Source: a virus. Taken from it: DNA of 64,000 bases. The notes under the pieces are model-generated. The model searched no databases, was not told the DNA's origin, and saw only the letters and a list, made by a program, of their open reading frames with translations. Made by a program: the position numbers and the translations under genes. The stretch lies in the IMG/VR virus record IMGVR_UViG_3300048999_000056, positions 1 to 64,000 of that record. One strand, given 5' to 3'. Of the stretch, positions 1 through 63,948 are shown one piece after another (positions within the stretch are counted from its first letter, which is position 1; each line of letters begins with the position of its first letter).

Positions 1-39
1 TTATATAAGTAGTAGCGTCGAACCAAATGGCGAGTTGAA

Positions 40-1963: not shown

Positions 1964-2175
1964 CGCCGGCCTCTTATCTCCGCGAGTTCTTCGTTGAACC
2001 GGCTGACTGGCTGCGCTGGCGCCCTGTCGTGTTGTCGGCGAACGACAACGTGGTGCGTCCGCTGCATCCGTGCCTGCAATTCTTCCGTCGCGCAACGGCT
2101 GAGCGCGTAGCCTCGATTGCCCGGCAACAATATGCTGACGGTCGGTTTGCAGGAGCGAAAGAGCACGTACCGTGA
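1960..2175 (+). CDS. Hypothetical protein
   Basis: Starts MTPASYLREFF; 4-nt overlaps with both neighbours. Confidence 0.45.
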   Translation: MTPASYLREFFVEPADWLRWRPVVLSANDNVVRPLHPCLQFFRRATAERVASIARQQYADGRFAGAKEHVP

Positions 2176-3500
2176 CACGTATGCGTATGCCGTTTGCGGA
2201 GGAGCAACAACCGCAACCGCAGCTATTCATGCAGATGCCGGTCGCGTTCATACCGCTGCTCGACCGGCGGATGCCCGACGGCACGCCGATCCGTTACAAA
2301 TGCTACTTCGGCGGACGCGGCGCCGGTCGCAGCTGGAACTTCGCCCGCGCTCTTGTCGGCGAAGCGTTCACCGAACAACACCTGATCCTCTGCACACGCG
2401 AGTTTCAGAACACGATTGCAGACTCGGTCAAGCGCGTGATCGAGACGCAGATCGCTGCCATGAAACTCGATCCATGGTTCCGCATCACGGAAACCAACAT
2501 AACGTGCCGGCTGACCGGCAGCGAGTTCATCTTCAAAGGTCTGCGTCGCGACATCCAGGGCATCAGATCGCTGGAGGGCGTGACACGCTGCTGGGTAGAG
2601 GAAGGCCAGTGGACCACTAATGACTCGTGGCTGATCCTCGACCCTACCATACGAGCGCCTGGCAGCCAGATTTGGGTATCCTATAACCCGGTCGATGAAA
2701 CCGATCCGACGCACCAGATGTTCGCGATCGATGAACACCGGCCGCACGACGCGTTGGTGCGCAAAGTCTCGTATCGTGACAATCCATGGTTTCCTGCCGA
2801 GCTGGAGCGGTTGCGCGTCCGTATGCTGGAGCAGGACCCGGATGCCTACGACTGGGTGTGGGAAGGCGAGTGCCGCAAGATATCAGCGGCGGCGATCTTC
2901 AAGGACAATTACATTGTCGAGGGTTTCGAGGAACCGGAGAAAGTTGACCGCTACTTCTTCGGTCTGGACTTCGGCTTTGCGCATGATGCGCTCGCAGCTG
3001 TGCGCTGCTACATCCACAACGATCAATTGTGGATCACGCACGAGTTCTACGCAATCGGCGTGGAGATCGACGACATAGCGCCCGCATTGAAGGGCGGACG
3101 CTCAGAGCGCAACGGCGCACAGTTTGAAGGTATCCCCGGTATCGAGCACTGGCCGGTGAAGGCTGACAGTGCGCGGCCCGAGACGATCAGTTATCTCGCG
3201 CGGCAAGGTCTCAACGTGACAGCCGCGGAGAAATGGCAAGGCTCTGTCGAGGACGGTATCTCGCACTTGAAGGGCTTTCGCAAAATCCACGTGCACACGC
3301 GCTGTGTCAACACGGCGCAGGAGTTCCGGCTCTACAGCTACAGGATCGACGCGAAAGCGAAGGACAAGCACAATCCGCAACCGGGCGATATCCTGCCGGT
3401 GCCAGAGGACAAGCACAACCACGCCATCGACGCAACACGCTACGCGCTCGACGGTTACATTCAACGTCGCGGTGGTCTGGGCGTGTGGGCCAAGCTGTGA
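2172..3500 (+). CDS. terL: Terminase large subunit (PBSX-type)
   Basis: Walker A-like GGRGAGRS, CTREFQNTIADSV, Walker B WVEEG, SYNP, nuclease motifs GLDFGF and NHAIDATRYA. Confidence 0.95.
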   Translation: MTRMRMPFAEEQQPQPQLFMQMPVAFIPLLDRRMPDGTPIRYKCYFGGRGAGRSWNFARALVGEAFTEQHLILCTREFQNTIADSVKRVIETQIAAMKLDPWFRITETNITCRLTGSEFIFKGLRRDIQGIRSLEGVTRCWVEEGQWTTNDSWLILDPTIRAPGSQIWVSYNPVDETDPTHQMFAIDEHRPHDALVRKVSYRDNPWFPAELERLRVRMLEQDPDAYDWVWEGECRKISAAAIFKDNYIVEGFEEPEKVDRYFFGLDFGFAHDALAAVRCYIHNDQLWITHEFYAIGVEIDDIAPALKGGRSERNGAQFEGIPGIEHWPVKADSARPETISYLARQGLNVTAAEKWQGSVEDGISHLKGFRKIHVHTRCVNTAQEFRLYSYRIDAKAKDKHNPQPGDILPVPEDKHNHAIDATRYALDGYIQRRGGLGVWAKL

Positions 3501-3511
3501 AAAACGGTTTT

Positions 3512-3530
3512 GGTATATAATAGATGGCAT
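3512..3530 (+). promoter_or_regulatory. Putative promoter/leader of GGY-NN array 1
   Basis: GGTATATAATAGATGGCAT (contains TATAAT) in a GC-rich genome; similar motifs precede arrays 2 and 3. Confidence 0.65.
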
Positions 3531-5449
3531 CGAATGGGTAGGCCAGGCATGTTGCGGTTTGGCTCGGCAGGCATCGCAACCACGCTCGGCATCGCAGGAT
3601 CGGCTTGGCGTGTGTTGGCTAGATAGGGCACGGTCCCGCAGGTAGGGCATGTGAGGGCTTGCGGCGGCAACGTTAGGCTTGGCGTTGCAGGCAGGTCGCG
3701 GTTCGACCAGACCCGGCTAGGCAGGGTTAGACGTGGCATCGCAGGATCGGCTCGGAACGTCACCGTTAGCTTTGGCTCGGGACGACTTGGCAGGCGAGTC
3801 TAGACAAGGCAAGTCAGGGCAAGGATCGACATCGCAGGCTCGGCTCGGTAGTTCTCGGCATGGTCCTGCCACGTAGGGTTGGGCATCGCAGGCAAGGCAT
3901 GGCGGGGTTCGACCACGCTCGGATCGGTTTGGCGTTGCAGGCTCGGTTCGGCAAGGCAGGCTCAGGCTCGACGTGTCATCGCAGGCGTGGCAATGATTGG
4001 CAAATCAGGGTTCGGCACGTCTAGGCCCGGCAGCGCAGGCATCGCAGGGACCGCATCGGTTTGTCAGGTCGTGGCACGGTGGGACGTGGCAGGCTAGACA
4101 TAGCAGGACGTGATAGGGCCGGGTTCGGTATCGCAGGTGAGGCTAGGCACGTCGTCGTGTGGACTGGACCGGCAACGTCCGGCAGGCACGGTTCGGCTTA
4201 GCAGGGCTTGTCAAAGGCAGGGTACGGGTTGGCTGGCGAGGCATGGCATCGTGCGGCCACGATAGTCCAGGCGGGTTGCGGCGGGCATGGCATGGCAAGA
4301 TACGGCGCCGCTCGACGCGGTATGTCGGCGCAGGCAGGTCTAGGCGCGGCTCGACGTGGCTTGGTCCGTTCCGGCCGGCTCCGCTCGGCACGGCATGGTA
4401 CGGAGCGTTCGGCAAGGCAGGGCGGGCTCGGCACGGTATGAGGCGGCTCGACGCCGGTGGGCAACGCAGGCACGGATCGTGAGGCAGCTCTAGGGATGGC
4501 TCGGCTCGACACCGCAGGCTTGGGTAGGCGAGTTGACGAAACGCTCGGCATGACGGGGCTCGGTAGGGCTGGCTTGGATTGGCGCGGATCGGCATGGCAC
4601 GTTGAGGTCCGGCAACGCAGGCTTGGTTGGGTTAGGCCCGACGTATCGCGGTTCGGCTCGACACGACAGGGCAGGCGTGGATTGGTAGGCGTGGATCGGC
4701 CTCGACTGGCATCGCATGGTATGGCAGGCGCGGCAAGAGTCGGCAGCGCTGGTCTAGTTCCGGCTGGTCATGGCGGGCACGGCAGGTTGAGACATGGTTC
4801 GGCCCGCCCACGTATCGCACGCTTTGGCATGGCGTCGCAGGCACGGTAAGCTGAGACATGGTCCGGCCCGGTTTGGCAGCGAAGGGTAGGGCATCGCAGG
4901 CTTGTCACGGCTGGGCAGGGGTCGTTGAGGCAATGTTAGGCATGGCGTCGCAGGCTCGGCTCGGTTAGGCATGTCCGCGTTTCGCGTGGCTCGGTTGCGC
5001 GGGCAGGGTTTGGTCGGTTTGTCCAGTCACGTCCCGGCTCGTTGGCGCTGGTCGTGGCCGGCATGGCAAGGTGAGCATAGGCTGGACACGGCAAGGGCGG
5101 CAACGCGGGCACGGCATGGCAATTCTCGGCTGGGCGACGTTTGGCAACGCGGGCGTGGATTGTCTCGGCAAGGCTGGTCGGGGATTGGTCAGGCAGGCCC
5201 CGCTTGGTCGGCTCGGCATGGCTAGTCAGCTCTCGTCAGGACGTGGCAGCCGTGGGAAGGCGAGGGCAGGCGTCCGGCGGTTCGGCAAGGCACCGCTGGC
5301 TGCGCTCGGTTTGGTCGGCTCGGGAAGGCTAGGTGGGGCTTCAGCAGGGCAGGCATGGCCCGACACGGCTCGACATGGTTAGGCGGGGCATGGTCCCGCT
5401 GGCATGCCATGGCACGGCGACGCCAGACGGGGCTAGACCAGGCAGGCAT
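3526..5449 (+). repeat. GGY-NN pentamer array 1 (putative guide-RNA array, roughly 35-40 units)
   Basis: 5-nt periodicity; unit ends such as GGCAT-CGCA start at 3588, 3632, 3681, 3735, 3784, 3828, 3882, 3931, 3975 and 4029 (spacings 44/49/54); no credible ORF. Confidence 0.9.
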
Positions 5450-5467
5450 ATATGATGGAGGTTGCGC

Positions 5468-5863
5468 ATGCTGCAACCTTTTTCAATGGATGGACAATAC
5501 CTTCAACTCGTGGCGCATCTGCGCGGTTGCGAACACGCGCTCTCCGATGATTTCAGGGGAGCGTGGGCGCCAGCCGCGCAACCGCGCCTCATGTGGGCAA
5601 TCGAGATCAACGTCGAAATGCCGCTCGATCCGTGCGACCTCGAAAAGCGGTTCGCGGCAATGGCGTTGAAGTACAAGATCGACATGCGGCAAGGCGACGC
5701 TCTGACGCCGCCGCTGCAACCACCTTATCCAGCATTGCGCCGGCACATACGCAAGGCGCGTAGCTTCTATGGTTTCATTGTCACCTATGTAGCGATGGTG
5801 CCGCATCCGGCAGCGTCGTGCACGAAACCGCCCTTCATTCCATTGGAGCCGATAGCGGCATGA
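5468..5863 (+). CDS. Hypothetical protein
   Basis: GGAGG upstream; overlaps the next ATG. Confidence 0.5.
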   Translation: MLQPFSMDGQYLQLVAHLRGCEHALSDDFRGAWAPAAQPRLMWAIEINVEMPLDPCDLEKRFAAMALKYKIDMRQGDALTPPLQPPYPALRRHIRKARSFYGFIVTYVAMVPHPAASCTKPPFIPLEPIAA

Positions 5864-6349: not shown

Positions 6350-6491
6350 ACCCTGAGCACGAAGAAGCCCATAGACGCGCCGCCGACAAGCGCCGTGACG
6401 ATCGGCGACGAGATCGTCTGGCCTGGTTCGGTGTGTGGATCGGTGTCTTCACGGCGCTGATCGCCATGGCAATAGCTGTAGGATTTCACCG

Positions 6492-8612
6492 TTGAGCGAT
6501 CGTGTCACCAAACCACGGGTGCGCGTGCAGGCTGGTAGCCCCAACAAGGCTTTCGTTGGCGATAGCTTCGCCAACTTCGCCGGCAATCTCGGCTACGGCA
6601 CGCAGAACCCGTCATCAGGCGCAACGTATGGTTTCCATCCGTTGTCGCGTGATCGTACGCTGCTCGAATGGATGTATCGGGGCAGCTGGCTTGTCCGCAA
6701 GGTCGTTGACTGCCCTGCCGACGATATGACGCGTGAGGGCATCAACATCGAAAGCGACATGCCGCCCGATGACATCGACGAGTTTACCCAGTTCTGGAAC
6801 AACCTGCAACTTTGGCAGCGGATCAACGCTACGCTGAAGTGGGCACGCCTGTATGGCGGCTGCCTCGCAGTTATGATGATCGCGGATCAGGACCCTGAGA
6901 CGCCGTTGCGGATCGACACGATCGGCAAGAATCAGTTCAAAGGGTTGATGGTGCTCGATCGGTGGATGGTCTGGCCGCACAACGATCTCGTGCGCGACTA
7001 CGGCGCCGACTACGGCAAGCCCAAGCTGTATGAGGTTGTCGCCGATGCGCGGTCGCAGCCGCGTTTGAAGGTGCACTATTCACGCGTCATACGCTTCGAC
7101 GGTGTTGAGCTGCCGTATTGGCAGAAGATGTCGGAGAACGAGTGGGGCCTCTCGGTCATTGAGCCGTTGTGGGATCGGATGATTGCATTCGACTCTGCGA
7201 CACAGGGCGCTGCCCAGTTGATCTATAAGGCGCATCTGCGCATTCTCAAGCTGCCGCAATATCGCGAACTGATCGCGTCGGGCGGTGCGATGTTCCAAGC
7301 CGTCATGCGGCAAATCCAGATGATCCGCATGATGCAGACCAACGAGGGTCTGACGGTCCTCGACGGCGAGGATGATTTCGTCTCGCAGCAATACAACTTC
7401 GGCGGCCTCGCCGAAATGATGATCCAGTTCGGTCAACAAGTGTCCGGCGCTGCCGACGTGCCGATGACACGTATGTTCGGACAGTCTCCCGCCGGCATGA
7501 ACGCAACAGGCGAGTCCGACCTGCGGAACTACTACGATGGTATTCGCTCGCAACAGGAGTTCCGCCTGCGTCGCGTAATCAAGCAGTTGCTTGATATCAC
7601 CTATCGCTCGATGACAGGACGGCCTTTGCCGCGTGGCTTCAACTTTTCGTTCAAGCCGCTATGGCAGTTGACCGACGAGATCAAGGCGCAGATCGCCACA
7701 GCGCACGCGACGGCGACCGAGGGCTTGCTGCAGGCTGGCGTCTTCACGCCGGCTATCGCACTGAAGGAAATCCGCCAGTCGTCACGGTTGACCGGTTTTG
7801 GTAGCAACATCACAGACGAGGATATCGAAGCTGCCGAACAGGCGCCGCCCATGCCCATGGAAGCCGGTATGCCAGGGGCGCCAGGACAGCCTGGACTGGC
7901 GGGACCGGAAGGCGACATGCCTGTGCCCGGCGTGCCCGGACCTGAGCAGCAGCCTGGATTGCCAGGGTTGCCGGCCGGTCGCGAGGCGCCGATGGAACTC
8001 GCGCCCAGGGAGGCGCTGCGGCGGCTCTCAGGCGCTGCCACAGGGCGGCAAGCAGCGACTGAAGAGGATGATGCCGCGAGATCGCCGGAGCCGCTGGCGG
8101 GCGCTCATATCAAGCTGCATGAGGGTGTCACGGCACGCGCCAATCTGCCCGGCACGCAAGTCAACTTCGACCGCCGCTCGATTATCGACATGGGCGGTCT
8201 GCAATGCGTGATCGAAACCGCCAAGGGTGAACAGCGGCTCGGCTACGGCTGGGCCGATGTCATGCCTTGCAACTATGGCTACATCACCGGCACGTCCTCC
8301 GCCGAGGGTGAGCGCGAACAGATGGATTGCTTCGTCGGCGACGATCTGACGAGTGATCGCGTTTGGATAATCGACCAGATCAACCCCGGCACAGCGCACT
8401 TCGACGAGCATAAGGTGATGCTCGGCTTCAGCTCGCGTGACGACGCATTGCAGACCTACCATGCAGCGTTCGGCGATGGCTCCGGTCCAGCCCGCGTCGG
8501 CACGGTGCGTGAAATGAGTATCGGCACGTTGAAGCGGTGGCTGGAGGATTGGAAATACGCCAATGCGCCGCCGCGCCGGTCCGCCAACGGAGACGCAAGA
8601 TATGATCGTTGA
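6492..8612 (+). CDS. Portal protein (DUF1073 family) with a C-terminal inorganic-pyrophosphatase-like domain; start codon uncertain
   Basis: YRGSWLVRKVVDCPADDMTR, WARLYGG, HYSRV, FGQSPAGMNATGESDLRNYYD; Pro/Gly linker; then IETAKG..YGYI.GT..DCFVG..FDEHKVMLGF. Confidence 0.9.
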   Translation: MSDRVTKPRVRVQAGSPNKAFVGDSFANFAGNLGYGTQNPSSGATYGFHPLSRDRTLLEWMYRGSWLVRKVVDCPADDMTREGINIESDMPPDDIDEFTQFWNNLQLWQRINATLKWARLYGGCLAVMMIADQDPETPLRIDTIGKNQFKGLMVLDRWMVWPHNDLVRDYGADYGKPKLYEVVADARSQPRLKVHYSRVIRFDGVELPYWQKMSENEWGLSVIEPLWDRMIAFDSATQGAAQLIYKAHLRILKLPQYRELIASGGAMFQAVMRQIQMIRMMQTNEGLTVLDGEDDFVSQQYNFGGLAEMMIQFGQQVSGAADVPMTRMFGQSPAGMNATGESDLRNYYDGIRSQQEFRLRRVIKQLLDITYRSMTGRPLPRGFNFSFKPLWQLTDEIKAQIATAHATATEGLLQAGVFTPAIALKEIRQSSRLTGFGSNITDEDIEAAEQAPPMPMEAGMPGAPGQPGLAGPEGDMPVPGVPGPEQQPGLPGLPAGREAPMELAPREALRRLSGAATGRQAATEEDDAARSPEPLAGAHIKLHEGVTARANLPGTQVNFDRRSIIDMGGLQCVIETAKGEQRLGYGWADVMPCNYGYITGTSSAEGEREQMDCFVGDDLTSDRVWIIDQINPGTAHFDEHKVMLGFSSRDDALQTYHAAFGDGSGPARVGTVREMSIGTLKRWLEDWKYANAPPRRSANGDARYDR

Positions 8613-27828: not shown

Positions 27829-28323
27829 GCCGCGCCGAACCACGTCACGACTTGCGGTGCGTTGCCGTGTCACGCCTGCCCAGCCTTGCCAGGAGCGGCC
27901 CCGACCGGCGCTGCCGACCCTGGACACGCCTGCGTTGCCGTTCCACGTCTAGCCCTGCGTGGCCCAACCAAGCCTGCGATACCGTGCATCGTCTCGCCTG
28001 ATCTGGACTCGCCTAGCCGATACATGCCTGCGATGCCAGCCCATGCGTAGCGTTGACCTGTCTAATCAGGCGCTACCGAGCCAAGCCTGCTGAGACAAGC
28101 CTTGCCGCGAAAAGCCACCACATCCCTTGCCCCGCCAGCCCTGCCCCATCGAGCCACGACCAGCGTCAACGAGCCTAGCCTGCCAAGCCGAACCCGGCGA
28201 TGACCTGAGTCGCCCTGCCATGCCGAGCCTGCGATGCCCTGCCTCGTCGTGCCCTGCGATGTTAAACCCGAGCCTGCCAGGACAGCCCTCGTCTAGCCTT
28301 GCCGAGCCGAATCATACCATGCC
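27829..28323 (-). repeat. GGY-NN pentamer array 2 (about 10 units)
   Basis: On +, CCTGC linkers at 27929, 27973, 28027 and 28086 (spacings 44/54/59); fills the intergenic gap. Confidence 0.88.
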
Positions 28324-28337
28324 ACTTCATATATACC
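28319..28337 (-). promoter_or_regulatory. Putative promoter/leader of array 2
   Basis: Minus strand reads GGTATATATGAAGTGGCAT; 15/19 identical to the array 1 leader. Confidence 0.65.
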
Positions 28338-28350
28338 GATCGAGGTTTTC

Positions 28351-28893
28351 GTGGCGCAACCACCACACGTTGTAACGGACCATGTTGACGAAGTGCTGAA
28401 GTCAATTCGTCAGCTCACACGCGCGAAGGTTTATGTTGGCATTCCTGCGGCGAACAATCCGCGCAAGGATGGCGTGACGCTCAACGCATTGCTCGGCTAC
28501 GTGCATGAGCATGGTTCGCCTGAGCGCAACATTCCTGCCCGCCCGTTCCTCGTGCCCGGTGTGAAATCCGTTGAGGACAAGACGACAGCCGGTCTGCGTC
28601 GCGCGGCGGAAAACGCACTTGAAGGGCAGTTGGAGCAGATGTTGAAGCAACTTGGTGCTGTAGGCTTCATGGCGACCAATGCCGTCAAGCGGATGATCAC
28701 TGCCGGATTGTCGCCACCACTCGCCGAACGCACTGTGCGGGCTCGGTTGCGAAAGACGCAAGCCGGGCGGCGGCGCCTGCGCAAGCTGGAGCAAGGCGGT
28801 GTTGATCTCTACCAATGGGGCGCCACCAACTTGAAGCCGCTGATCGATACTGCGCAGCTGCGGAACTCCATCACTTACGTCATCCGGAGTTGA
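28351..28893 (+). CDS. Neck/tail-completion protein
   Basis: VYVGIP, HEHGSP..NIPARPFL.PG, PLA..T, KPLIDT.QLRNSITYV. Confidence 0.8.
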   Translation: MAQPPHVVTDHVDEVLKSIRQLTRAKVYVGIPAANNPRKDGVTLNALLGYVHEHGSPERNIPARPFLVPGVKSVEDKTTAGLRRAAENALEGQLEQMLKQLGAVGFMATNAVKRMITAGLSPPLAERTVRARLRKTQAGRRRLRKLEQGGVDLYQWGATNLKPLIDTAQLRNSITYVIRS

Positions 28894-29889: not shown

Positions 29890-30112
29890 CCTGCGATGCC
29901 ATGCCGAGCCGCATCGGTCCTAGTCACGTCTTGCCCTGCCATGCCGAGCCTGCGCTGCCGCGCCAGGACTGGCGTCAACGAGCGATGCCGAGCGTTGCCG
30001 GCCACACCGCGACTTAGCCGTGCCAAGCCCAGACTTGCCTTGCCAAGCCCGCCGCACCTTGACGTGTGCTGCCCGTCCTAGACCGGCCAAGCGCGCCGAG
30101 CCGGGTCTTGCC
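29889..30112 (-). repeat. GGY-NN pentamer array 3 (about 4-5 units)
   Basis: On +, CCTGCGATGCC at 29890 and CCTGCGCTGCC at 29949 (spacing 59); pentamer periodicity. Confidence 0.85.
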
Positions 30113-30126
30113 ACTTGTTATATACG
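30108..30126 (-). promoter_or_regulatory. Putative promoter/leader of array 3
   Basis: Minus strand reads CGTATATAACAAGTGGCAA; same consensus as the other two leaders. Confidence 0.65.
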
Positions 30127-30157
30127 AAATTGCCTGTTCAACGAGGAGTAACTGCAA

Positions 30158-31654
30158 ATGCCTATCGGTCTATCTGTCTCTGATGTTGTGCAGGTTTCAA
30201 TCAACCTGCAGCCGATCGCAGCGCCTACGCGAAACTTCGGTGCGCTCTGCATCATCGGCGATTCTTCTGTCATCGATATCGCGTCGCGCATCCGTCAGTA
30301 TACGACGCTCGACGGTGTTGCGGCTGACTTCGGTACAACGGCGCCGGAGTATCTGGCCGCCGATCTGTTTTTCTCGCAGAGCCCGCAACCGTCAATCCTC
30401 TACATCGGGCGCTGGGCGCGCACTGCGACAGCGGGGCAGCTCAACGGCGCCGTGCTCAATTCGGCGCAGCAAGCGGCGTTGCTGACGACGCTGCAGGGGA
30501 TCACAACCGGCGGCATGACGATCTCGGTGGACGGCACGCCGCATGTGCTGACCAACCTGAATTTTTCCGGCATCCTCAATCTTAACGGCGCAGCCACGAT
30601 CATCAATACTGCACTGCCGTCAGCAACCACGGTTTGGGATGGCACGCTCGGGCGGTTTGAGGTCACGTCGCATACCAGTGGCGGAACTTCCAGTGTCAGC
30701 TACGCCACCGATCCTGGGACCGGCGCACCGTTGGCAACCGATCTTGCGTTGACACAGACATCAGGCGCATCGGCGCCGATTGCCGGCGTGCCTTCGGAAA
30801 CGCCCGTTGCGGCGGTCCAGGCGATCAGCCCGCTCAACGCTGATATCTACGGGATCATGTTCGCTGCCGCCACGCCGCCGACTGATGTCCAGCGTCAAGC
30901 GGTTGCAGCCTATATCGAAGGTGCCTCGCCGACGCATATCTACGGGATCACGGTGCAGGACCCGCTGGCAATCGATCCGACCTCTACCACCGATCTCGGC
31001 TACCTGCTCAAAGCGGCCAATTACAGCCGGACATTCTGGCAATACAGCAGTTCATCGCCTTATGCGGTTGCGTCCATGTTCGGCCGCGCCTTCACGACAG
31101 ACTTCAGCGCGAACAACTCGGTGATCACACTCAAGTTCAAGCAGGAGCCGGGTGTGACGGCTGAGTCGTTGACCGAGACGCAGGCTGCCGCGATCGATGC
31201 CAAGAACGGCAATGTGTTCGTCAACTACATGAATGACCGGGCGATCATTCAGCAAGCCAAGATGGCGTCTGGCATTTTCTTCGATGAGCGTCAGGGCACC
31301 GACTGGCTGCAGAACCAAGTGCAGACTGACATCTTCAATCTGCTCTTCACGTCGCCGACCAAGATACCGCAGACCGATCCCGGCATGCACCAGCTTGCCA
31401 CGACAGCCGAACAGTCGATGGACCGTGCTGTCAACAATGGTCTGGTGGCACCGGGCATCTGGACCTCTTCGCTGGAGTTCGGCTTGCTCAAGCAGAACCA
31501 AGCGCTGGCGAAGGGTTACTACGTGTTCATGCCGCCAGTGGCGACACAGAGCCAGTCCGATCGTGAAGCACGCAAGGCGACAACAATGCAAATCGCGGCG
31601 AAACTCGCTGGTGCTGTGCATGATGCGAACGTCGTCATCAACGTCAACCGATGA
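30158..31654 (+). CDS. Contractile tail sheath protein (DUF3383)
   Basis: V..DFG...PEY.AA..FFSQSPQP, ITLKFKQEPGV, DWLQN..Q, KIPQTD, KLAGAVH. Confidence 0.92.
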   Translation: MPIGLSVSDVVQVSINLQPIAAPTRNFGALCIIGDSSVIDIASRIRQYTTLDGVAADFGTTAPEYLAADLFFSQSPQPSILYIGRWARTATAGQLNGAVLNSAQQAALLTTLQGITTGGMTISVDGTPHVLTNLNFSGILNLNGAATIINTALPSATTVWDGTLGRFEVTSHTSGGTSSVSYATDPGTGAPLATDLALTQTSGASAPIAGVPSETPVAAVQAISPLNADIYGIMFAAATPPTDVQRQAVAAYIEGASPTHIYGITVQDPLAIDPTSTTDLGYLLKAANYSRTFWQYSSSSPYAVASMFGRAFTTDFSANNSVITLKFKQEPGVTAESLTETQAAAIDAKNGNVFVNYMNDRAIIQQAKMASGIFFDERQGTDWLQNQVQTDIFNLLFTSPTKIPQTDPGMHQLATTAEQSMDRAVNNGLVAPGIWTSSLEFGLLKQNQALAKGYYVFMPPVATQSQSDREARKATTMQIAAKLAGAVHDANVVINVNR

Positions 31655-41667: not shown

Positions 41668-44600
41668 TGCCAAATCTGACGATCAACCTCGGGTCGCTGA
41701 CAGGTAAGACTGTCCCGGCTGCTCTGTATGGTTTCTCGACTGGCGCGCTCGCCGACAACGGCTTCGCCAATGCTGCAGCTACTGCCACGAAGAATGCGTT
41801 GACAACAATCAAGCCGACGCTTGTTCGCGTCAATGCAAACCAGCAAATTCCGGAGAAATACGGAACCGGCAACACCGGCTACACCAACAATTGGTGGAAC
41901 AACCGGGCTGCCTTCATGGACCCAAACCATACTTTTGTCATGTCGGCCGGTCCTTCGTCTGACACCGGCTTGCCTTACTCGGCCAGTCAGGAAGCGACGT
42001 ATGCTTCGAATTTCGCAACTGCAATGCGGAATGCTGGTCACGAGATAACAACTTGGGAGATTGGCAACGAGTCGCTCAACATCTTGCCTGATGTTGCGAG
42101 CTATCTGAATTATTACCTGCCGATCGCTCGCGCTCTGCATACTGTTAATGCCAACTATAAAGTTGGCGGTCCTGCCACGACATGGTGGGGCGCCTATGAT
42201 CCGGCGCAGTTTGCCAATGGTGTTGCGGCCGGTGACTGCGACTTCTACGAGTTCCACGCTTACAACTTCCAGGGCGTAACCGATCATGCGTCCATCTACA
42301 ATGGTGCCAAGAACTTCGGCGATGCAGACTCCATTCGGACCGCTCTGCGAAATACGAAGCTGGCGAATGTGCCGATCTTCCTGTCGGAGTGGAACCTCGA
42401 CGGTGACTTCAATACCAATCCTGGCATTCAGATCACCTATGTAGGCGCCATTGCGGACGCATTGCTGTCAACTCGTATGTGGCAAGGCGATCCGAACATT
42501 ATGGGCGCCGCTTACTGGGATGCTATCAGCGATCCAAAGTTCGGCGCGATTGAAACCAACGGACAGATCAACCCGCCTGGATACTACCTAGGCTACGCCG
42601 GTCAGCACATGCCCGGTGCAGAGGTCACGGTCTCCGGTGTGTCTGGCAATCTGCAAGTGCTGGCGACGAAGAACGGCAGTAACGTTGCAATTCAGCTCGT
42701 CAATTACGATACAGCGTCTGCGTCAGCCAACAACATCACCTTGACTGGTGGACAGCCGTCCGGTGCGATTACGCGTTGGGAGATCGGCAAATCTAATCAG
42801 TCAACGCCGAATGTCTCGACGCAAGCCAGCCTGTCCAGCGTCAATGTGCCGTCTGAGCAAATCGTCATTCTGACCTTCAGCACGGCAGCAGCGCAGCGCT
42901 CGTTGACGGTCAACGCGATAACAGGTGCGCAAGTCGGTTCGACATTTACCGTGTCCGGCACACTGACAAACTTCACGTCGGCCCCGACGCTGCTCTATTC
43001 TGACGATGGCGGCGGCACTCAAGCGCTGCCGGCCGGCGCGAATGTGACTGCAACATCATACAGCTTCACGCATCCGGCGCCGACAATTGCCGGCAACCAT
43101 ACGATCGTCGTGACTGATGGCACCAACTCGGCATCCGCGACATACAGCGTCGTTGACATCACGTGGCAGTCGCGACCGTTGACAGGCTCACTGTCCGACA
43201 CCGTGACAGGACTGGCGCCCTCGACCTCCTACGACTTCCGTGTATCGGCGCAGAACTCGCTCGGCAGCGGTCCGTTCTCAACCGTCGTCACGCGCTCGAC
43301 CGGCACTGTCGCGCCGACGTTGCCGGGTGCGCCTGTAAGCGTATCGTCTTCTGCTGTCTCGTCGTCTTCGGTGACGGTGACATGGGGGGCGCCGACGACA
43401 GGCAGCGCGCCGTTCACCTATCGCGTGCAGTCCTCCCCGGCAGGCTTGGGCACCTGGACCAATCGAGGGACAGGGGTTTCGGGCACAAGCCTGCCAGTGA
43501 CCGGTCTGGCAGCCGCTACGAGCTATGATTTCCGGGTATTCGCCACGAACAGCGTCGGCGAGGGTCCGGCGTCTTCGACTTACAACGTCTCGACCACGAC
43601 AGCGGCAGCAGCAGTTACGTGGGACCCAGCCAACATCGGCGGCGGCGCGACTTTGTCCAACAGCAACCTGACGGTGACAGCGAACGGTTCCACGACACCG
43701 GGCACAGCCTTTCAGGGTGTGCGTAGCACAGTCTCTCAATCGGCCGGCAAACTCGCCTTTGAAGTGACGACAAATGCCTTGACGCAGGACATGGAGATTG
43801 CTCTCGTCAATGGCAATCATGCCCAAACGACTGATGCTGGGGAGGATCAGCTCAACGGCATCGCGTTTTATCCCAGCGGCGGCGGTGGTAGTCAGGCGCC
43901 GATGTCGGTCTACCAAAATAGCGTTCAAGTGCTGGTCCCTAGCGGCTCGCCGATCTCGGATAGCCCCGGTTCGATTGTGACATTCTGCGTTGATCTGACA
44001 GCCCGGTTGTTCTGGGTTACGAGTAACGCGATGCGTAGCGTCTACGGCGCGTCAGCCTGGAATGATAGCGCCAGTGCCAATCCGGCAACCGGCGTTGGTG
44101 GCATACCGATCAACATCACGGGTGCATTGTTTATCTGCTTCTTTTCCTCAGAGGGCGGTGCAGTCGTCACACTCAATGCCGGCTCGTCCACATTCTCCAC
44201 TTTTGTTCCGTCCAGCTTCGCGGCCTGGGGCGGAACAGGAGCAATCACCGCTCCTGGTGCTGTGACAAGCCTGAGTGGCAGCCCGAGTTCTACAAGCGTG
44301 CAGCTGACCTGGAGCGCACCAACGATCGGCACAACGCCGTTTACCTACCACATGCAGATGTCGCCGACCGGCACCAACACGTGGTCTGATCAAGGCACGT
44401 CTTCGTCGGTATCCGGCACCGTTGCAGGTCTGACGCCTGGGACTGGTTATGACTTCCGCGTCTATGCTGCGAATGCAGCCGGCAATGGCGGGTTCTCCAA
44501 CACGATCACGGTCAGCACGACTTCCGGCGTCTCGGGCACGACGTTCGACGAAGAGTTTGGCACGCTGAGCCTACTCAATACGCGCAACACGGCGGCGGGC

Positions 44601-60799: not shown

Positions 60800-61255
60800 A
60801 TGGCAATTCTCAACGCAACAGCCGGCATATCAGGTGTCGGCAGGCTGACGGCAATCGCTGCGGCAAAGGAAACAGCGACGGCGGTCCTGTCGGGCAATGC
60901 CAGCGTATTTGTCAACGCTGTCAATGCGCTGCATCTGGCGAGCCCGCCAAACTATCCGATTCCGCCGCAGGCGGATGACGCTGCGCCTGTCTTTCTTGTC
61001 GATCCGGCAACCGGTGCCGCAGTCGGCGCAACAGGACCGTACGCAAACGCACTGCCGGTGACGCCGGCCGATGTCGGCTCACTGCCGGCAACCACGCGTG
61101 CGTTGTGGATCGGCGGTGCCGGTAACGTGACGGTTGACACTCTTGGCGGACAGACAGTCACGCTGACCGCAGTGGCAGCAGGAACATTGCTGCCACTGCA
61201 AGTCTCGCGTGTCCGTGCGGCGACAACGGCGACGTTGGTCGTCGCGTTGTGGTGA
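60800..61255 (+). CDS. Head-spike base protein-like (RcGTA Rcc01079 family)
   Basis: VTP.D...L....RALWIGGAGNV.V....G..VT......G..LP..V.RV....TA..VVALW. Confidence 0.7.
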   Translation: MAILNATAGISGVGRLTAIAAAKETATAVLSGNASVFVNAVNALHLASPPNYPIPPQADDAAPVFLVDPATGAAVGATGPYANALPVTPADVGSLPATTRALWIGGAGNVTVDTLGGQTVTLTAVAAGTLLPLQVSRVRAATTATLVVALW

Positions 61256-61256
61256 T

Positions 61257-62261
61257 GCCTGCGCTGACGGGTCGCACCCTGCCGCGCCTAACCGTGTCGG
61301 GCGATGCCTGCCAAGCCCTGACAATCCACGTCTTGCGTTGCCGTGCCGTGCCGGGCCTGCCGGGTCAAGCCGGGACCTTCCGAGCGTTGCGATGCCGCGT
61401 CTGCCCCGCCATGACATGCCTTGCCGTTGCGAGCGTAGCCTTGCCTGCGCTGTCTTGCCGTGACGGACCTAGCCGCGCTCTGCCCTGTCGAGCCTGCCAT
61501 GCCATGCCCTGACGATCTATGCCATCCCGAGCCGAGCCTAGCCAGCCACGTCAAGCCGTGCCTTGACACGTCTTTCCAAGCCTAGCCGAGCCGAGTCTGC
61601 GTTGACCTGCCAATCGATACCTCGCCGTGCCAAGCCGCGTCTGCCCTGCCTCGGCCTGCCGAACGATACCATGCCCTGCAGACCCATGCCTGCGATGCCG
61701 GAACGTGCCCTGCGCTCTCGTGCCACGTCACCACGTACCCTGCCTGCGCCGCCTCAACGCGTCCTACCGAGCCAAGCCGAGACAAGCCTGCGATGCGGCG
61801 CCTAGCCTCGCCTCGACGGATGTCGCCTCGCCTAGCCTGCGTTGCCACAACCAGCCCCCCGAGATCAGGCGAACCCAGCGTGTCCAAGCCTGCCACGCGC
61901 CGCCCGGACTGCCCTTGCCTATCGGTGTCGCCCCGAGCCGGCCGCGCCCTGCCTCGCCCAGTCTCGTCCTGCCAGGACGTGCCTTGCCTGCCCCGTCGTG
62001 ACGTGCCCAGCGCGGCGTAGCCGAGCCTGCCATGCCATGACCGGTCTAGTCCCGCCTAACCATAGCGGGCCGCGCCTGCCCCGCCATCCGGGCGTCGCCT
62101 TGCCGAGCCTTGTCGAACCATGCCTGCGACGCCTTGCCACGGCGTTACGCGTCTAGCCGCACCTTGCCGAGCCTGCGACGCGATGCCTTGCCAAGCCACG
62201 TCGCAACCCGCCAAGCCTGCGTTGCCATCCCTCGAATTGCCCAGCCAACGCTAACCCTGCC
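61257..62261 (-). repeat. GGY-NN pentamer array 4 (about 20 units), downstream of the RAMP-like operon
   Basis: Minus-strand unit 62173-62125 reads GGCTC GGCAA GGTGC GGCTA GACGC GTAAC GCCGT GGCAA GGCGT CGCA; linkers at 62123, 62172 and 62216 (spacings 49, 44). Confidence 0.9.
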
Positions 62262-62276
62262 CTGTACACAAGGCGA

Positions 62277-62317: not shown

Positions 62318-62839
62318 CTACTGTCTGCGGCGCTTTCGCCCTGCCTTGCGGTCGGGGCCTTTGCGTGCTGGCGACTTCACCGTGCCACCTTCCAGCTGAT
62401 CCTGCCGGCGCCGCTCCAGTTCGGCAATCCGCTGGCCTTCATCGAACAGGCGCGACATTTCGGTCAACCGCTGATACTTGATATGGAAGCGGTTGAAGTC
62501 ATCTAGCGCGTCCTTCAACATGACGCGCCGCAAGTCACGATCGGGCAGAATGCGATCAAGCGGACGATAACCGCCGCCCGCGTGACGATCGATACTCAAC
62601 GAGATCATGGTGCGCTGCCCGGTATCGTCAACAACATGAATGGCAATCAGGCGGCGTATCTGGTCGAGCCGATAGCGGTATCCTGCCTTGGCGTCTTCCC
62701 ATTCGAGTTCTTCATGCAGTGCCGAGCTGGGATGCGTAGCAGCCCAGTCGTGCACCACCTTGACGTAGAGATTGCCATCGGGATCGAGCCGGCGCAGCGC
62801 CTCCAGTTCCTGCTGGATGCGCGCCGTGGATTCAAGCAT
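62318..62839 (-). CDS. Conserved phage protein, candidate accessory factor of the RAMP/array system
   Basis: AGGAGG RBS; S.LH..LEW.D..A...YRL.Q.R.LI and L..AL.....F..KY..L motifs. Confidence 0.75.
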   Translation of the reverse strand: MLESTARIQQELEALRRLDPDGNLYVKVVHDWAATHPSSALHEELEWEDAKAGYRYRLDQIRRLIAIHVVDDTGQRTMISLSIDRHAGGGYRPLDRILPDRDLRRVMLKDALDDFNRFHIKYQRLTEMSRLFDEGQRIAELERRRQDQLEGGTVKSPARKGPDRKAGRKRRRQ

Positions 62840-63080
62840 TGTTCGGCCTCCTGGTTGAACGCGCGGCCCAGCCGATAGCGTTCGCCAGATCGCCTTTTTC
62901 CATTGCCAGCTCATACTTGTTGAGTGCGAGCATGTGTTGCGTGAACTTGCGCTCGCGCCGTGCCCATGTGCCAATACGCCGCTTCCTCCGAGGCGGCGTT
63001 TCCTGCAATGCTTTCTCCTTCAGCGCCTCTTGTGCGAGGCGCTGCCCTTCACGGGTTATGTTTTTCAACCGGCTAAGCAT
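62832..63080 (-). CDS. Small basic hypothetical protein
   Basis: 8-nt overlaps with both flanking genes. Confidence 0.55.
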   Translation of the reverse strand: MLSRLKNITREGQRLAQEALKEKALQETPPRRKRRIGTWARRERKFTQHMLALNKYELAMEKGDLANAIGWAARSTRRPNNA

Positions 63081-63948
63081 TGCTGTTGACTACGTCCCAC
63101 AAGCCCCAGTCCAGACCGTTGGAGTTCGGCGAGGAGGGCCGCCCCTCGCCGACGCCGACCTGCATACCGGCAATCGCCATCAGGTTGACCACGTCGGTTG
63201 CCGAGAACTGCCGCGCGTCCCAGCGGACGGTCACGGCGGCGTTCCACTTTTCCCACATAGGCCGGTGGCGGATATCGGCAACGCCTGATGCGTTGCGGGC
63301 TGGCGCCTCGTGCAGCCGTGGCGTGCCGTTGATCTTGACGAGCGGCTGCCCATCCTGATCGAGTCCGTCCGGCACGATGAACAACGACAGCTTGGCGCGT
63401 GTCATCGTGAAGCCGGCAAGGCGGCACGCGTCAATCATCGCGTTGCGGAAAGCCGGCGCCGGAATGCCGTGCCATCCGTCACGCGCGATATGCTGCGCCA
63501 GACGGTAGATTTCTTCGAAGTCCTTCGGCTCGCGACGGCGGCGTGACTTTTCGCCCTGCGAACCCGCCTTCTGCCGCTCCACCATCATGTTGACGGCTTT
63601 CTGGCTGAATTTGTGTTGCACGTAAGGCGTAGAGCCTCTGATGTAGACGATGCCGCGATCGAACTGCGGCGGTTGAATGACGACGCGCGTCACCTTGCCG
63701 CTCAACACGCCAACCGTGCCTTGCTCCATGGTGCTGTCGAGCGTTTCGATCGGGATCGGCGAGGCGGGTATCCTGCCGAAATTGTCGGTGTTGCGCATTG
63801 ACGGCCCGGCTACTGCACCCTTGCCGTTCTTGCCCTTGCCGTTCCGACCGATCGTCGCCTCACGTTCCGCCAGCAGGTCCGCAACCGGATTGCCGCCAGC
63901 GTGCGCCGCCTCGAATGCGGCTTTCTGCTGTCTCTCGTCGCGTGACAT
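63073..63948 (-). CDS. Stand-alone RAMP/Cas7-like RNA-binding protein
   Basis: I.G.TP first strand, GIPAPAFRNAMIDAC (compare RAMP IP.S..KG..R), thumb-like segment ending R.RP.W..W, Gly-rich loop AG..VGVGEGRP......WG.W. Confidence 0.7.
   Translation of the reverse strand: MSRDERQQKAAFEAAHAGGNPVADLLAEREATIGRNGKGKNGKGAVAGPSMRNTDNFGRIPASPIPIETLDSTMEQGTVGVLSGKVTRVVIQPPQFDRGIVYIRGSTPYVQHKFSQKAVNMMVERQKAGSQGEKSRRRREPKDFEEIYRLAQHIARDGWHGIPAPAFRNAMIDACRLAGFTMTRAKLSLFIVPDGLDQDGQPLVKINGTPRLHEAPARNASGVADIRHRPMWEKWNAAVTVRWDARQFSATDVVNLMAIAGMQVGVGEGRPSSPNSNGLDWGLWDVVNSNA

What the first reader, a model, noticed from the sequence alone, without database searches (positions are those of the whole stretch)
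3526..5449. 1.9-kb orphan GGY-NN array right after terL with a strict 5n+4 unit grammar
Seen: unit 3690-3743 reads GGCAG GTCGC GGTTC GACCA GACCC GGCTA GGCAG GGTTA GACGT GGCAT CGCA. The first nine spacings I measured are 44, 49, 54, 49, 44, 54, 49, 44, 54, i.e. 8-10 pentamers plus a 4-nt linker. Phase is kept while positions 4-5 vary freely, and I saw no identical units, unlike a slippage microsatellite. The last pentamer plus linker (GGCAT-CGCA-GG) is the most conserved part. Inference: this is the largest guide library of the system, about 57 kb from the RAMP gene and acting in trans, with the linker as a processing site or filament phase break.
Basis: partly seen in the sequence, partly recalled or inferred. 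Interest (0 to 1): 0.88.

Follow-up and report, generated by a model that had tools for sequence, protein, structure and literature searches.

The report
Remote VIPR guide-RNA array in phage
The 1.9-kb five-base rhythm after the terminase gene is real and is best read as about 40 back-to-back guide RNAs for the phage's single Cas7-like Vipr protein: a large, remote example of the VIPR system published in 2026, not a new kind of element.

Summary
Window 3526-5449 parses into 350 pentamers and 42 four-base steps, with no six-base step. Every phase slip is therefore -1 and every unit is 5n+4, mostly 44, 49 or 54 nt. The consensus is G-G-Y-N-N with nearly free NN.

The 113-kb phage has five such arrays. 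Four have their own TATATA promoter and the fifth follows the operon of a 291-aa protein. That protein is the phage's only homologue of SUSP1 Vipr (profile E 3.3e-5) and folds like Csm3/Cas7.

The link between protein and array holds in both directions. Arrays found by DNA pattern alone have this protein next door in 12 of 14 loci. Loci found by the protein alone have co-oriented arrays in 47 of 50.

This matches the "staggered vrRNA arrays" with 1-nt overlap in the VIPR discovery preprint (bioRxiv 10.64898/2026.04.26.720920, fig. S18 legend).

Three things are not shown: transcription, processing and targets. No guide hit exceeded chance. This scan has already reported VIPR arrays, including remote and scattered ones, on other genomes. 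Verdict: a new member of a known kind, notable for its size (about 90 guides genome-wide) and for promoter-equipped arrays lying antisense inside the late operon.

The parts
3513..3520 (+). GTATATAA promoter-like motif, followed five bases later by TGGCA, the start of the array
   Evidence: GTATATAW occurs 12 times in the 112.8-kb genome, against about 2 expected from composition. It sits directly upstream of arrays 1, 2 and 3 and of several genes. The relative L118 has the same leader in front of its post-terL array.
3526..5449 (+). Array 1: staggered vrRNA array of about 40 guide units, each 8-11 GGY-NN pentamers plus a 4-nt NGCA step
   Evidence: 350 pentamers, 42 four-nt steps, no six-nt step; G 40% and C 26% on the + strand. 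The RNA is not unusually structured (z -0.9). No Rfam family or tRNA.
5457..5483 (+). Terminator-like hairpin (10 pairs) ending in a run of five U, closing the array 1 transcription unit
   Evidence: fold, -16.7 kcal/mol. The simple consensus scan did not call it.
27850..28325 (-). Array 2, same grammar, between the DUF4054 and Neck1 genes and antisense to them; own TATATA motif at 28330-28337
   Evidence: (89 pentamers, 8 four-mers).
29890..30110 (-). Array 3, same grammar, between the neck terminator and tail sheath genes and antisense to them; own TATATA motif at 30119-30126
   Evidence: (42 pentamers, 3 four-mers).
61255..62265 (-). Array 4, same grammar, directly downstream of the vipr operon
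   Evidence: 184 pentamers, 22 four-mers.
62318..62839 (-). 173-aa conserved accessory gene (vap-like)
   Evidence: Homologues lie next to vipr in L129, L026, L058, L031, L074, L020 and L138. PHROG 15946, no Pfam or NCBIfam family. AF2 pLDDT 89, with only weak winged-helix hits at E 0.16-1.
62832..63080 (-). 82-aa ORF between vipr and the vap-like gene; function unknown
   Evidence: No family hit and no homologue in the other loci.
63073..63948 (-). vipr: the only Vipr/RAMP homologue in the genome. The core is 63088-63702; a poorly modelled N-terminal extension of about 90 aa (pLDDT below 50 over residues 36-82) precedes it
   Evidence: A profile of 29 homologues hits only SUSP1 Vipr (36pp_D) in the PDB, at E 3.3e-5. 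The match covers the G-loop, GVGEGRP here against GVGDWRP. AF2 model pLDDT 78; Foldseek top hits are Csm3, Cmr4 and type VII Cas7 at E 4e-5 to 1e-3. Single copy in the genome. Its TATATA promoter lies at genome 64135-64147, just past the window end.

Best explanation
Window 3526-5449 is a staggered array of VIPR guide RNAs (vrRNAs).

Inferred from sequence: it is transcribed on the + strand from its own phage promoter (GTATATAA, then TGGCA) and ends at a hairpin with a U-run.

Taken from the published SUSP1 structures, not tested here: copies of the phage's single Vipr protein (63073-63948, minus strand) bind the RNA, one protomer per pentamer. They bury G-G-Y and display the two variable bases. 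The displayed bases of one unit (8-10 dinucleotides) read double-stranded DNA with one base skipped after every two (NNx). The bound target gene is then silenced.

Inference on the 4-nt step: every 8-11 pentamers a 4-nt NGCA step shifts the register by -1, so neighbouring guides overlap by one G. This marks where one filament or guide ends and the next begins.

The array is one of five in the genome, together about 90 units, all presumably served in trans by the one Vipr. Its probable use is to repress competing phages or other mobile elements. The targets are not identified.
For: 1. Grammar. In all five arrays every slip is -1: 789 pentamers, 89 four-mers, 0 six-mers. The consensus is GGY-NN with nearly free NN.

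2. Same grammar throughout the clade: 392 four-nt against 23 six-nt steps in 47 bacterial or MAG loci, and likewise in IMG/VR loci.

3. Two-way association with the protein. Of 14 loci with true arrays found only by a DNA pattern, 12 encode a homologue of the 63073-63948 protein beside the array. Of 50 loci found only by the protein, 47 have a co-oriented array.

4. The protein is Vipr-like. The profile gives a single PDB hit, SUSP1 Vipr, at E 3.3e-5 across the G-loop, and the fold is Cas7/Csm3-like.

5. Published description. [quoted passage not shown] The structures show one protomer per repeat (10.64898/2026.04.26.720927).

6. Transcription signals. The G-rich strand of arrays 1, 2, 3 and 5 sits behind the same TATATA motif as the vipr operon, even where that is antisense to the flanking late genes. 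Array 1 ends in a terminator-like hairpin.

7. Synteny with turnover. The closest relative (L118, TerL 70% identical) has a 2-kb array with the same leader at the same place after terL, but with different guides.

8. No self-targeting above a shuffled-guide null, as published for VIPR.
Against: - No transcript, processing or protein-binding data exist for this phage.
- No target was found. Exact NNx scans of six guide patterns in IMG/VR and two in JGI metagenomes gave only chance-level hits. Mismatch-tolerant scans of about 2 Mb of fetched phage and host loci did not exceed shuffled controls.
- Only about 55% of pentamers are strict GGY, although perturbing GGY abolished silencing in SUSP1. 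The G-loop here is GEGR, not GDWR, so the Trp that stacks on the second G in SUSP1 is missing.
- There is no conserved 3' tail or pseudoknot of the kind type II vrRNAs have.
- Staggered arrays are known to me only from a figure legend and, according to the preprint text, were not confirmed by sRNA-seq.
Confidence: 0.85

Rival explanations
1. The remote arrays are decaying or silent relics of VIPR arrays: copies moved away from the vipr locus that are no longer used.
For: Only about 55% strict GGY, and an irregular distal half of array 1 with many short or double-length units. No targets found.
Against: The -1-only phase rule is fully kept over 1.9 kb; drift would add +1 and other indels. The promoter motif and terminator are intact. 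The relative L118 keeps an array of similar size at the same site. The array next to vipr (array 4) has the same motif quality.
Confidence: 0.07
2. The arrays are decoys or sponges: RNAs that soak up or redirect the Vipr proteins of rival phages rather than arming the phage's own protein. Satellite solo vrRNAs do this (bioRxiv 10.64898/2026.10.15.759431).
For: Solo vrRNAs that redirect a foreign Vipr are published. Four of the five arrays are unlinked to vipr and have their own promoters.
Against: This phage has its own vipr behind the same promoter type. About 90 different units is more than a decoy needs. No match to repetitive host-like sequence was seen, though host genomes were hardly searched.
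Confidence: 0.05
3. The region acts at the DNA or R-loop level, independently of Vipr. A transcribed G-rich pentamer tract could form R-loops or two-layer G-quadruplexes, as immunoglobulin switch regions do, and serve replication, recombination or packaging next to terL.
For: G 40% against C 26% on the non-template strand, a promoter in front, GG every 5 nt, and the position beside terL. This was my first idea before I read the VIPR papers.
Against: It explains none of three things: the strict -1 punctuation, the free NN positions, or the near-universal linkage to a Vipr gene (12 of 14 and 47 of 50 loci). The arrays also lie between neck and tail genes and next to vipr, not only at terL.
Confidence: 0.03

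Closest known systems
VIPR systems with staggered vrRNA arrays (bioRxiv 10.64898/2026.04.26.720920, main text and legend of fig. S18)
   Same: A lone Vipr RAMP protein with an adjacent accessory gene, phage-borne. The arrays are GGY-NN pentamers whose neighbouring guides overlap by 1 nt, which gives the 5n+4 spacing seen here.
   Different: Five arrays are scattered over a 113-kb genome. Four lie 24-57 kb from vipr with their own promoters, and two of those plus array 4 are antisense to the neighbouring late genes. The total is about 90 units. The triplet is relaxed (G/G/Y at 83/75/81%). I could read only the legend, not the figure, so I cannot name the VIPR type.
Type II VIPR of Escherichia phage SUSP1 (Vipr, vap1, four vrRNAs; PDB 36pp; bioRxiv 10.64898/2026.04.26.720927)
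   Same: Homologous protein (profile E 3.3e-5, G-loop aligned), pentamer guides of similar repeat number, and a probable winged-helix-type accessory protein.
   Different: SUSP1 vrRNAs are about 100 nt, separate, and end in a conserved pseudoknot tail. Here there is no tail, only a 4-nt NGCA step. The G-loop is GEGR rather than GDWR. The protein carries an N-terminal extension of about 90 aa.
Solo (orphan) vrRNAs of F5 satellites and vipr-null SUSP1-like phages (bioRxiv 10.64898/2026.10.15.759431)
   Same: vrRNA genes unlinked to a vipr gene that work with a Vipr made elsewhere.
   Different: Those are 1-2 guides on elements that lack vipr and borrow another element's protein. Here long arrays sit in a genome that has its own vipr.
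Class 1 CRISPR crRNA bound by a Cas7 backbone
   Same: A RAMP filament on a guide RNA with periodic thumb insertion; the fold of the protein.
   Different: No repeat-spacer array and no cas1, cas2 or other cas genes. The register is 5 nt with three bases hidden, not 6 nt with one flipped. Target reading is gapped.

Membership tests
VIPR system | A Vipr protein (minimal RAMP: RRM core, G-loop, thumb) encoded in the same genome | tested here: met
   The profile of 29 homologues hits only SUSP1 Vipr in the PDB (E 3.3e-5). The AF2 model matches Csm3, Cmr4 and type VII Cas7 (E 4e-5 to 1e-3). Single copy.
VIPR system | Non-coding RNA genes made of tandem pentamers with a conserved GGY and hypervariable NN | tested here: met
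   Information per position is 1.13, 0.82, 0.54, 0.06 and 0.04 bits. The motif is relaxed: about 55% strict GGY.
VIPR system | About 9-16 repeats per guide | tested here: met
   The commonest units are 44, 49 and 54 nt, which is 8-10 full pentamers plus the terminal step.
VIPR system | Physical linkage of arrays and vipr across relatives | tested here: met
   12 of 14 pattern-found loci carry the protein. 47 of 50 protein-found loci carry a co-oriented array.
VIPR system | An accessory vap gene next to vipr | tested here: inconclusive
   The 173-aa gene is conserved beside vipr in at least 7 loci. Its fold gives only weak winged-helix hits, and I could not compare it with vap1-6.
VIPR system | vrRNAs are expressed and co-purify with Vipr | not testable with these tools
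Only promoter and terminator motifs are available.
VIPR system | Natural targets that match the NN string under the 1-nt-skip rule | tested here: inconclusive
   Eight collection scans and three local scans gave only chance-level hits. Only exact matches could be sought in the big collections, whereas the papers accept 80% or more.
VIPR system | No self-targeting | tested here: met
   The best self matches equal the shuffled-guide null.
VIPR, staggered-array architecture | Adjacent vrRNAs overlap by exactly 1 nt | tested here: met
   All 89 phase slips in the five arrays are -1.
VIPR type II (SUSP1-like) | A conserved structured 3' tail or pseudoknot after each repeat tract | tested here: not met
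   Units are separated only by NGCA. No conserved tail and no excess structure.
CRISPR array | Direct repeats of about 24-40 nt alternating with unique spacers, plus cas1/cas2 | tested here: not met
   Tandem Repeats Finder found no such repeats. The units share no repeat longer than the last-pentamer/NGCA/first-triplet junction. I ran no search for cas1 or cas2.

The most novel reading that the evidence does not exclude
The 4-nt steps may not be cleavage sites at all. The whole 1.9-kb transcript could stay intact and carry about 40 short Vipr filaments side by side, each knocked out of register from the next. That would make one multivalent silencing particle. In addition, the scattering of promoter-equipped arrays, three of them antisense to the late-gene flow, might time different guide sets or damp late transcription.
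Probability: 0.12. Interest if true: 0.6.

Novelty: new member of a known kind. Interest (0 to 1): 0.35.

Why it matters
VIPR was described only in 2026, and its staggered arrays appear there only in a supplementary figure without RNA data. This phage gives a clean natural test case with three useful properties:

- About 90 guides obey a perfectly kept -1 rule.
- One protein gene serves arrays up to 57 kb away.
- A close relative holds a different guide set at the same site, so guides turn over quickly by an unknown route (no Cas1-like gene is known for VIPR).

It could help to settle how staggered guides are cut or delimited, and how new guides arise. It does not change what is known about the kind of system.

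Tried and rejected
Early ideas, all dropped once the protein linkage and the VIPR papers were in hand:
- TRAP-like ring-protein binding site.
- CsrA-type sponge.
- G-quadruplex or R-loop tract like immunoglobulin switch regions.
- Chi-like array.
- Repeat protein. There is no ORF, and lag-3 autocorrelation is 0.22 against 0.44 at lag 5.

Database checks that found nothing:
- Rfam and tRNA: none.
- GenBank phages, megablast of 25 kb: no match.
- Pfam and NCBIfam for vipr, the 82-aa ORF and the 173-aa gene: none.

Target hunting:
- Own genome: nothing above null.
- 1.5 Mb of loci, including complete relatives G002 and G003: nothing above null.
- 0.5 Mb around Vipr genes in bacteria: nothing above null.
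- Exact IMG/VR scans of array 1 guides 5, 8, 24, 13 and 31 gave 0, 3, 2, 0 and 1 contigs, about what chance gives.
- Guide 8 hit a CDS with the skipped base at codon position 1.
- Guide 24 hit an intergenic site in a 57% G+C contig, but no second guide converged on that contig.
- In metagenomes, guide 24 hit 17 contigs. Read on the opposite strand, the hits in two groups of these spell GSVIEAKK with the skipped base at wobble. The two groups belong to unrelated families, CutC and DeoC, so I treat this as a common-peptide coincidence.
- Guide 30 in metagenomes: 0 hits.
- A unit of array 2 shares 16 of 20 NN letters with a unit of L118. The shared core gave 25 random low-G+C hits.
- Array 2 unit 7 matches the terL of relatives L119 and L120 at 14 of 16 letters, with the skip at codon position 1. 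This is within the null.

Full report
WHAT IS THERE

The window is the first 64 kb of a 112,818-bp IMG/VR phage record rated complete. Region 3526-5449 follows the large terminase gene (2172-3500) and precedes a small ORF and the portal gene (6435-8612).

The region has no convincing ORF. Its 5-nt periodicity is very strong: autocorrelation is 0.44 at lag 5 against 0.22 at lag 3. The peak drifts to 5k-1 at longer lags.

I ran a dynamic-programming parse that was free to use steps of 3-7 nt. It gave 350 pentamers, 42 four-nt steps, one seven-nt step at the very start and no six-nt step. Shuffled sequence gave a mixture. Every unit is therefore 5n+4 nt, most often 44, 49 or 54.

The pentamer consensus is G (83%), G (75%), Y (81%), N, N. 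Positions 4 and 5 carry only 0.06 and 0.04 bits. No two units are alike; the maximum identity is 0.69. The terminal NGCA and the pentamer before it are the most conserved parts.

THE WIDER PICTURE IN THIS GENOME

The genome holds five such arrays:
- Array 1: 3526-5449, + strand.
- Array 2: about 27850-28325, - strand.
- Array 3: about 29890-30110, - strand.
- Array 4: about 61255-62265, - strand.
- Array 5: about 87226-87901, - strand, outside the window.

Together they hold 789 pentamers and 89 four-nt steps, and no six-nt step.

Arrays 1, 2, 3 and 5 are each directly preceded, on the G-rich strand, by a TATATA motif. GTATATAW occurs 12 times in the genome against about 2 expected. The same motif precedes several genes and the operon that ends in array 4.

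Arrays 2 and 3 lie between neck and tail genes and point against them. The strand with the GGY rhythm therefore carries its own promoter whatever the neighbours do, which argues for an RNA product. Array 1 ends in a 10-pair hairpin plus five U. The array RNA itself is not unusually structured (z -0.9).

HOW I REACHED THE IDENTIFICATION

My first ideas were a site for a ring-shaped RNA-binding protein, a sponge RNA, or an R-loop or G-quadruplex tract. A look-up of this scan's earlier notes pointed to VIPR, a system published in 2026. I then read the primary preprints myself.

- bioRxiv 10.64898/2026.04.26.720920 describes phage-borne systems of a minimal RAMP protein (Vipr), an accessory gene (vap) and vrRNAs of 9-16 GGY/NN pentamers. 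The NN letters read double-stranded DNA with one base skipped after each pair. It lists 'staggered arrays with overlapping vrRNAs'. The legend of fig. S18 says the vrRNAs come from positions that overlap by 1 nt, so that the end of one marks the start of the next. That is exactly a 5n+4 spacing.
- bioRxiv 10.64898/2026.04.26.720927 shows one Vipr protomer per repeat, with GGY buried and NN displayed.
- bioRxiv 10.64898/2026.10.15.759431 describes solo vrRNAs unlinked to vipr.

TESTS OF MEMBERSHIP

The protein. A profile of 29 of them finds one thing in the PDB, SUSP1 Vipr, at E 3.3e-5. The alignment covers the G-loop: GVGEGRP here, GVGDWRP there. Its AlphaFold model (pLDDT 78) matches Csm3, Cmr4 and type VII Cas7 subunits at Foldseek E 4e-5 to 1e-3. 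It is the only such gene in the genome.

Linkage from DNA to protein. A 15-base array motif fished IMG/VR contigs. Of the 14 with true period-5 arrays, 12 encode a homologue of this protein beside the array. Many also carry a homologue of the 173-aa gene that follows vipr here.

Linkage from protein to DNA. The Vipr profile found 50 loci in bacterial species genomes and MAGs. Aestuariivirga, Vineibacter and Bradyrhizobium are nearest; Planctomycetota, Verrucomicrobiota, Gemmatimonadota, Cyanobacteria and others also appear. Of these 50 loci, 47 have a co-oriented pentamer array, with 392 four-nt against 23 six-nt steps.

The accessory gene. The 173-aa gene folds confidently (pLDDT 89) but gives only weak winged-helix-like matches. 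That fits the DNA-binding vap classes of the preprint but does not prove membership.

The tail. There is no conserved 3' tail, so this is not the SUSP1-like type II layout.

COMPARISON WITH RELATIVES

The closest phage fragment (L118, TerL 70% identical) has a 2-kb array at the same place after terL. It has the same GTATAT...TGGCA leader and the same grammar, but a different set of guides.

A complete relative with 59% TerL identity (G002) has neither vipr nor arrays. Its terL-portal gap is filled with coding-like sequence instead.

A complete 138-kb phage with a related Vipr (G003) has a single array next to the gene.

The arrays therefore behave as accessory cassettes, and their content turns over much faster than the flanking genes.

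WHAT COULD NOT BE SHOWN

Targets were not found. Self-matches equal the shuffled null. Mismatch-tolerant scans of about 2 Mb of fetched phage and host loci did not exceed shuffled controls.

Eight exact NNx scans of IMG/VR and JGI metagenomes returned only chance-level hits. One cluster looked attractive: read on the opposite strand, guide 24 of array 1 spells GSVIEAKK with the skipped base at wobble. It falls in two unrelated families, CutC and DeoC, so I take it as coincidence.

The large collections could be searched only for exact matches, whereas the papers accept 80% NN identity. The negative result is therefore weak.

POINTS OF DIFFERENCE WORTH NOTING

- The triplet is relaxed: only about 55% strict GGY, with many GAC, GTC and CGC.
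- The G-loop lacks the Trp that stacks on the second G in SUSP1. The two facts may be connected; this is an inference.
- The protein has an N-terminal extension of about 90 aa that most homologues lack.
- About 4.3 kb, or 3.8% of the genome, is given over to guides.

VERDICT

The element belongs to a kind published in 2026. This scan has already reported VIPR arrays on at least 19 other genomes, including remote and scattered arrays. It is a large and tidy new member of a known kind, useful as a test case for how staggered guides are delimited and renewed.

Noticed in passing
window 3474-3520, 28330-28375, 30119-30160; genome 64135-64185, 71743-71790, 72683-72730, 87906-87950, 106449-106490: The TATATA promoters fall into two upstream classes. 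One has GTTGAACA or GTTCAACAC (array 3, array 5, the vipr operon and two genes). The other has GTGAAAAAC (array 1 and a site at 106449). They may be two temporal classes of phage promoter.
   Followed up: partly
window 28088-28161 (array 2, unit 4) and L118:6832-6885: These two units share 16 of 20 NN letters while their 'constant' triplets differ at most positions. That is what selection on the guide code would give, but about 0.2 such pairs are expected by chance among all the comparisons made.
   Followed up: partly
window 27931-27974 (array 2, unit 7) vs L119:6862-6884 and L120:1698-1720: The unit's NN string matches 14 of 16 letters in the conserved nuclease motif region (DILP...DK.NHAIDA) of the terL of two related phages. 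The phage's own terL matches only 9 of 16. The skipped base falls on codon position 1, and the hit is within the shuffled null.
   Followed up: partly
window 63703-63948 (and up to genome 64173): This Vipr carries an N-terminal extension that is poorly modelled over residues 36-82 (pLDDT below 50) and that most homologues (about 210-240 aa) lack. The TATATA promoter at 64135-64147 lies inside the longest possible ORF, so the true start is probably at or after 63948.
   Followed up: partly
L118:6300-6650: The post-terL array of the closest relative is interrupted by about 350 nt without the 5-nt rhythm.
   Followed up: no
G002 (L132-L137), 43147-45800: A complete relative without vipr or arrays has coding-like sequence (several ORFs of 100-200 aa) in the terL-portal gap. 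This junction looks like a hot spot for accessory cargo.
   Followed up: partly
L151-L200: This Vipr clade, always with staggered arrays, is spread over many bacterial phyla in species-representative genomes and MAGs: Alphaproteobacteria, Planctomycetota, Verrucomicrobiota, Gemmatimonadota, Cyanobacteria, Bacteroidota and others. L188 has a 2-kb array.
   Followed up: partly
window 1-7: The record begins with a TATATA motif at base 2. This may be a promoter at the genome end or an assembly break inside one.
   Followed up: no
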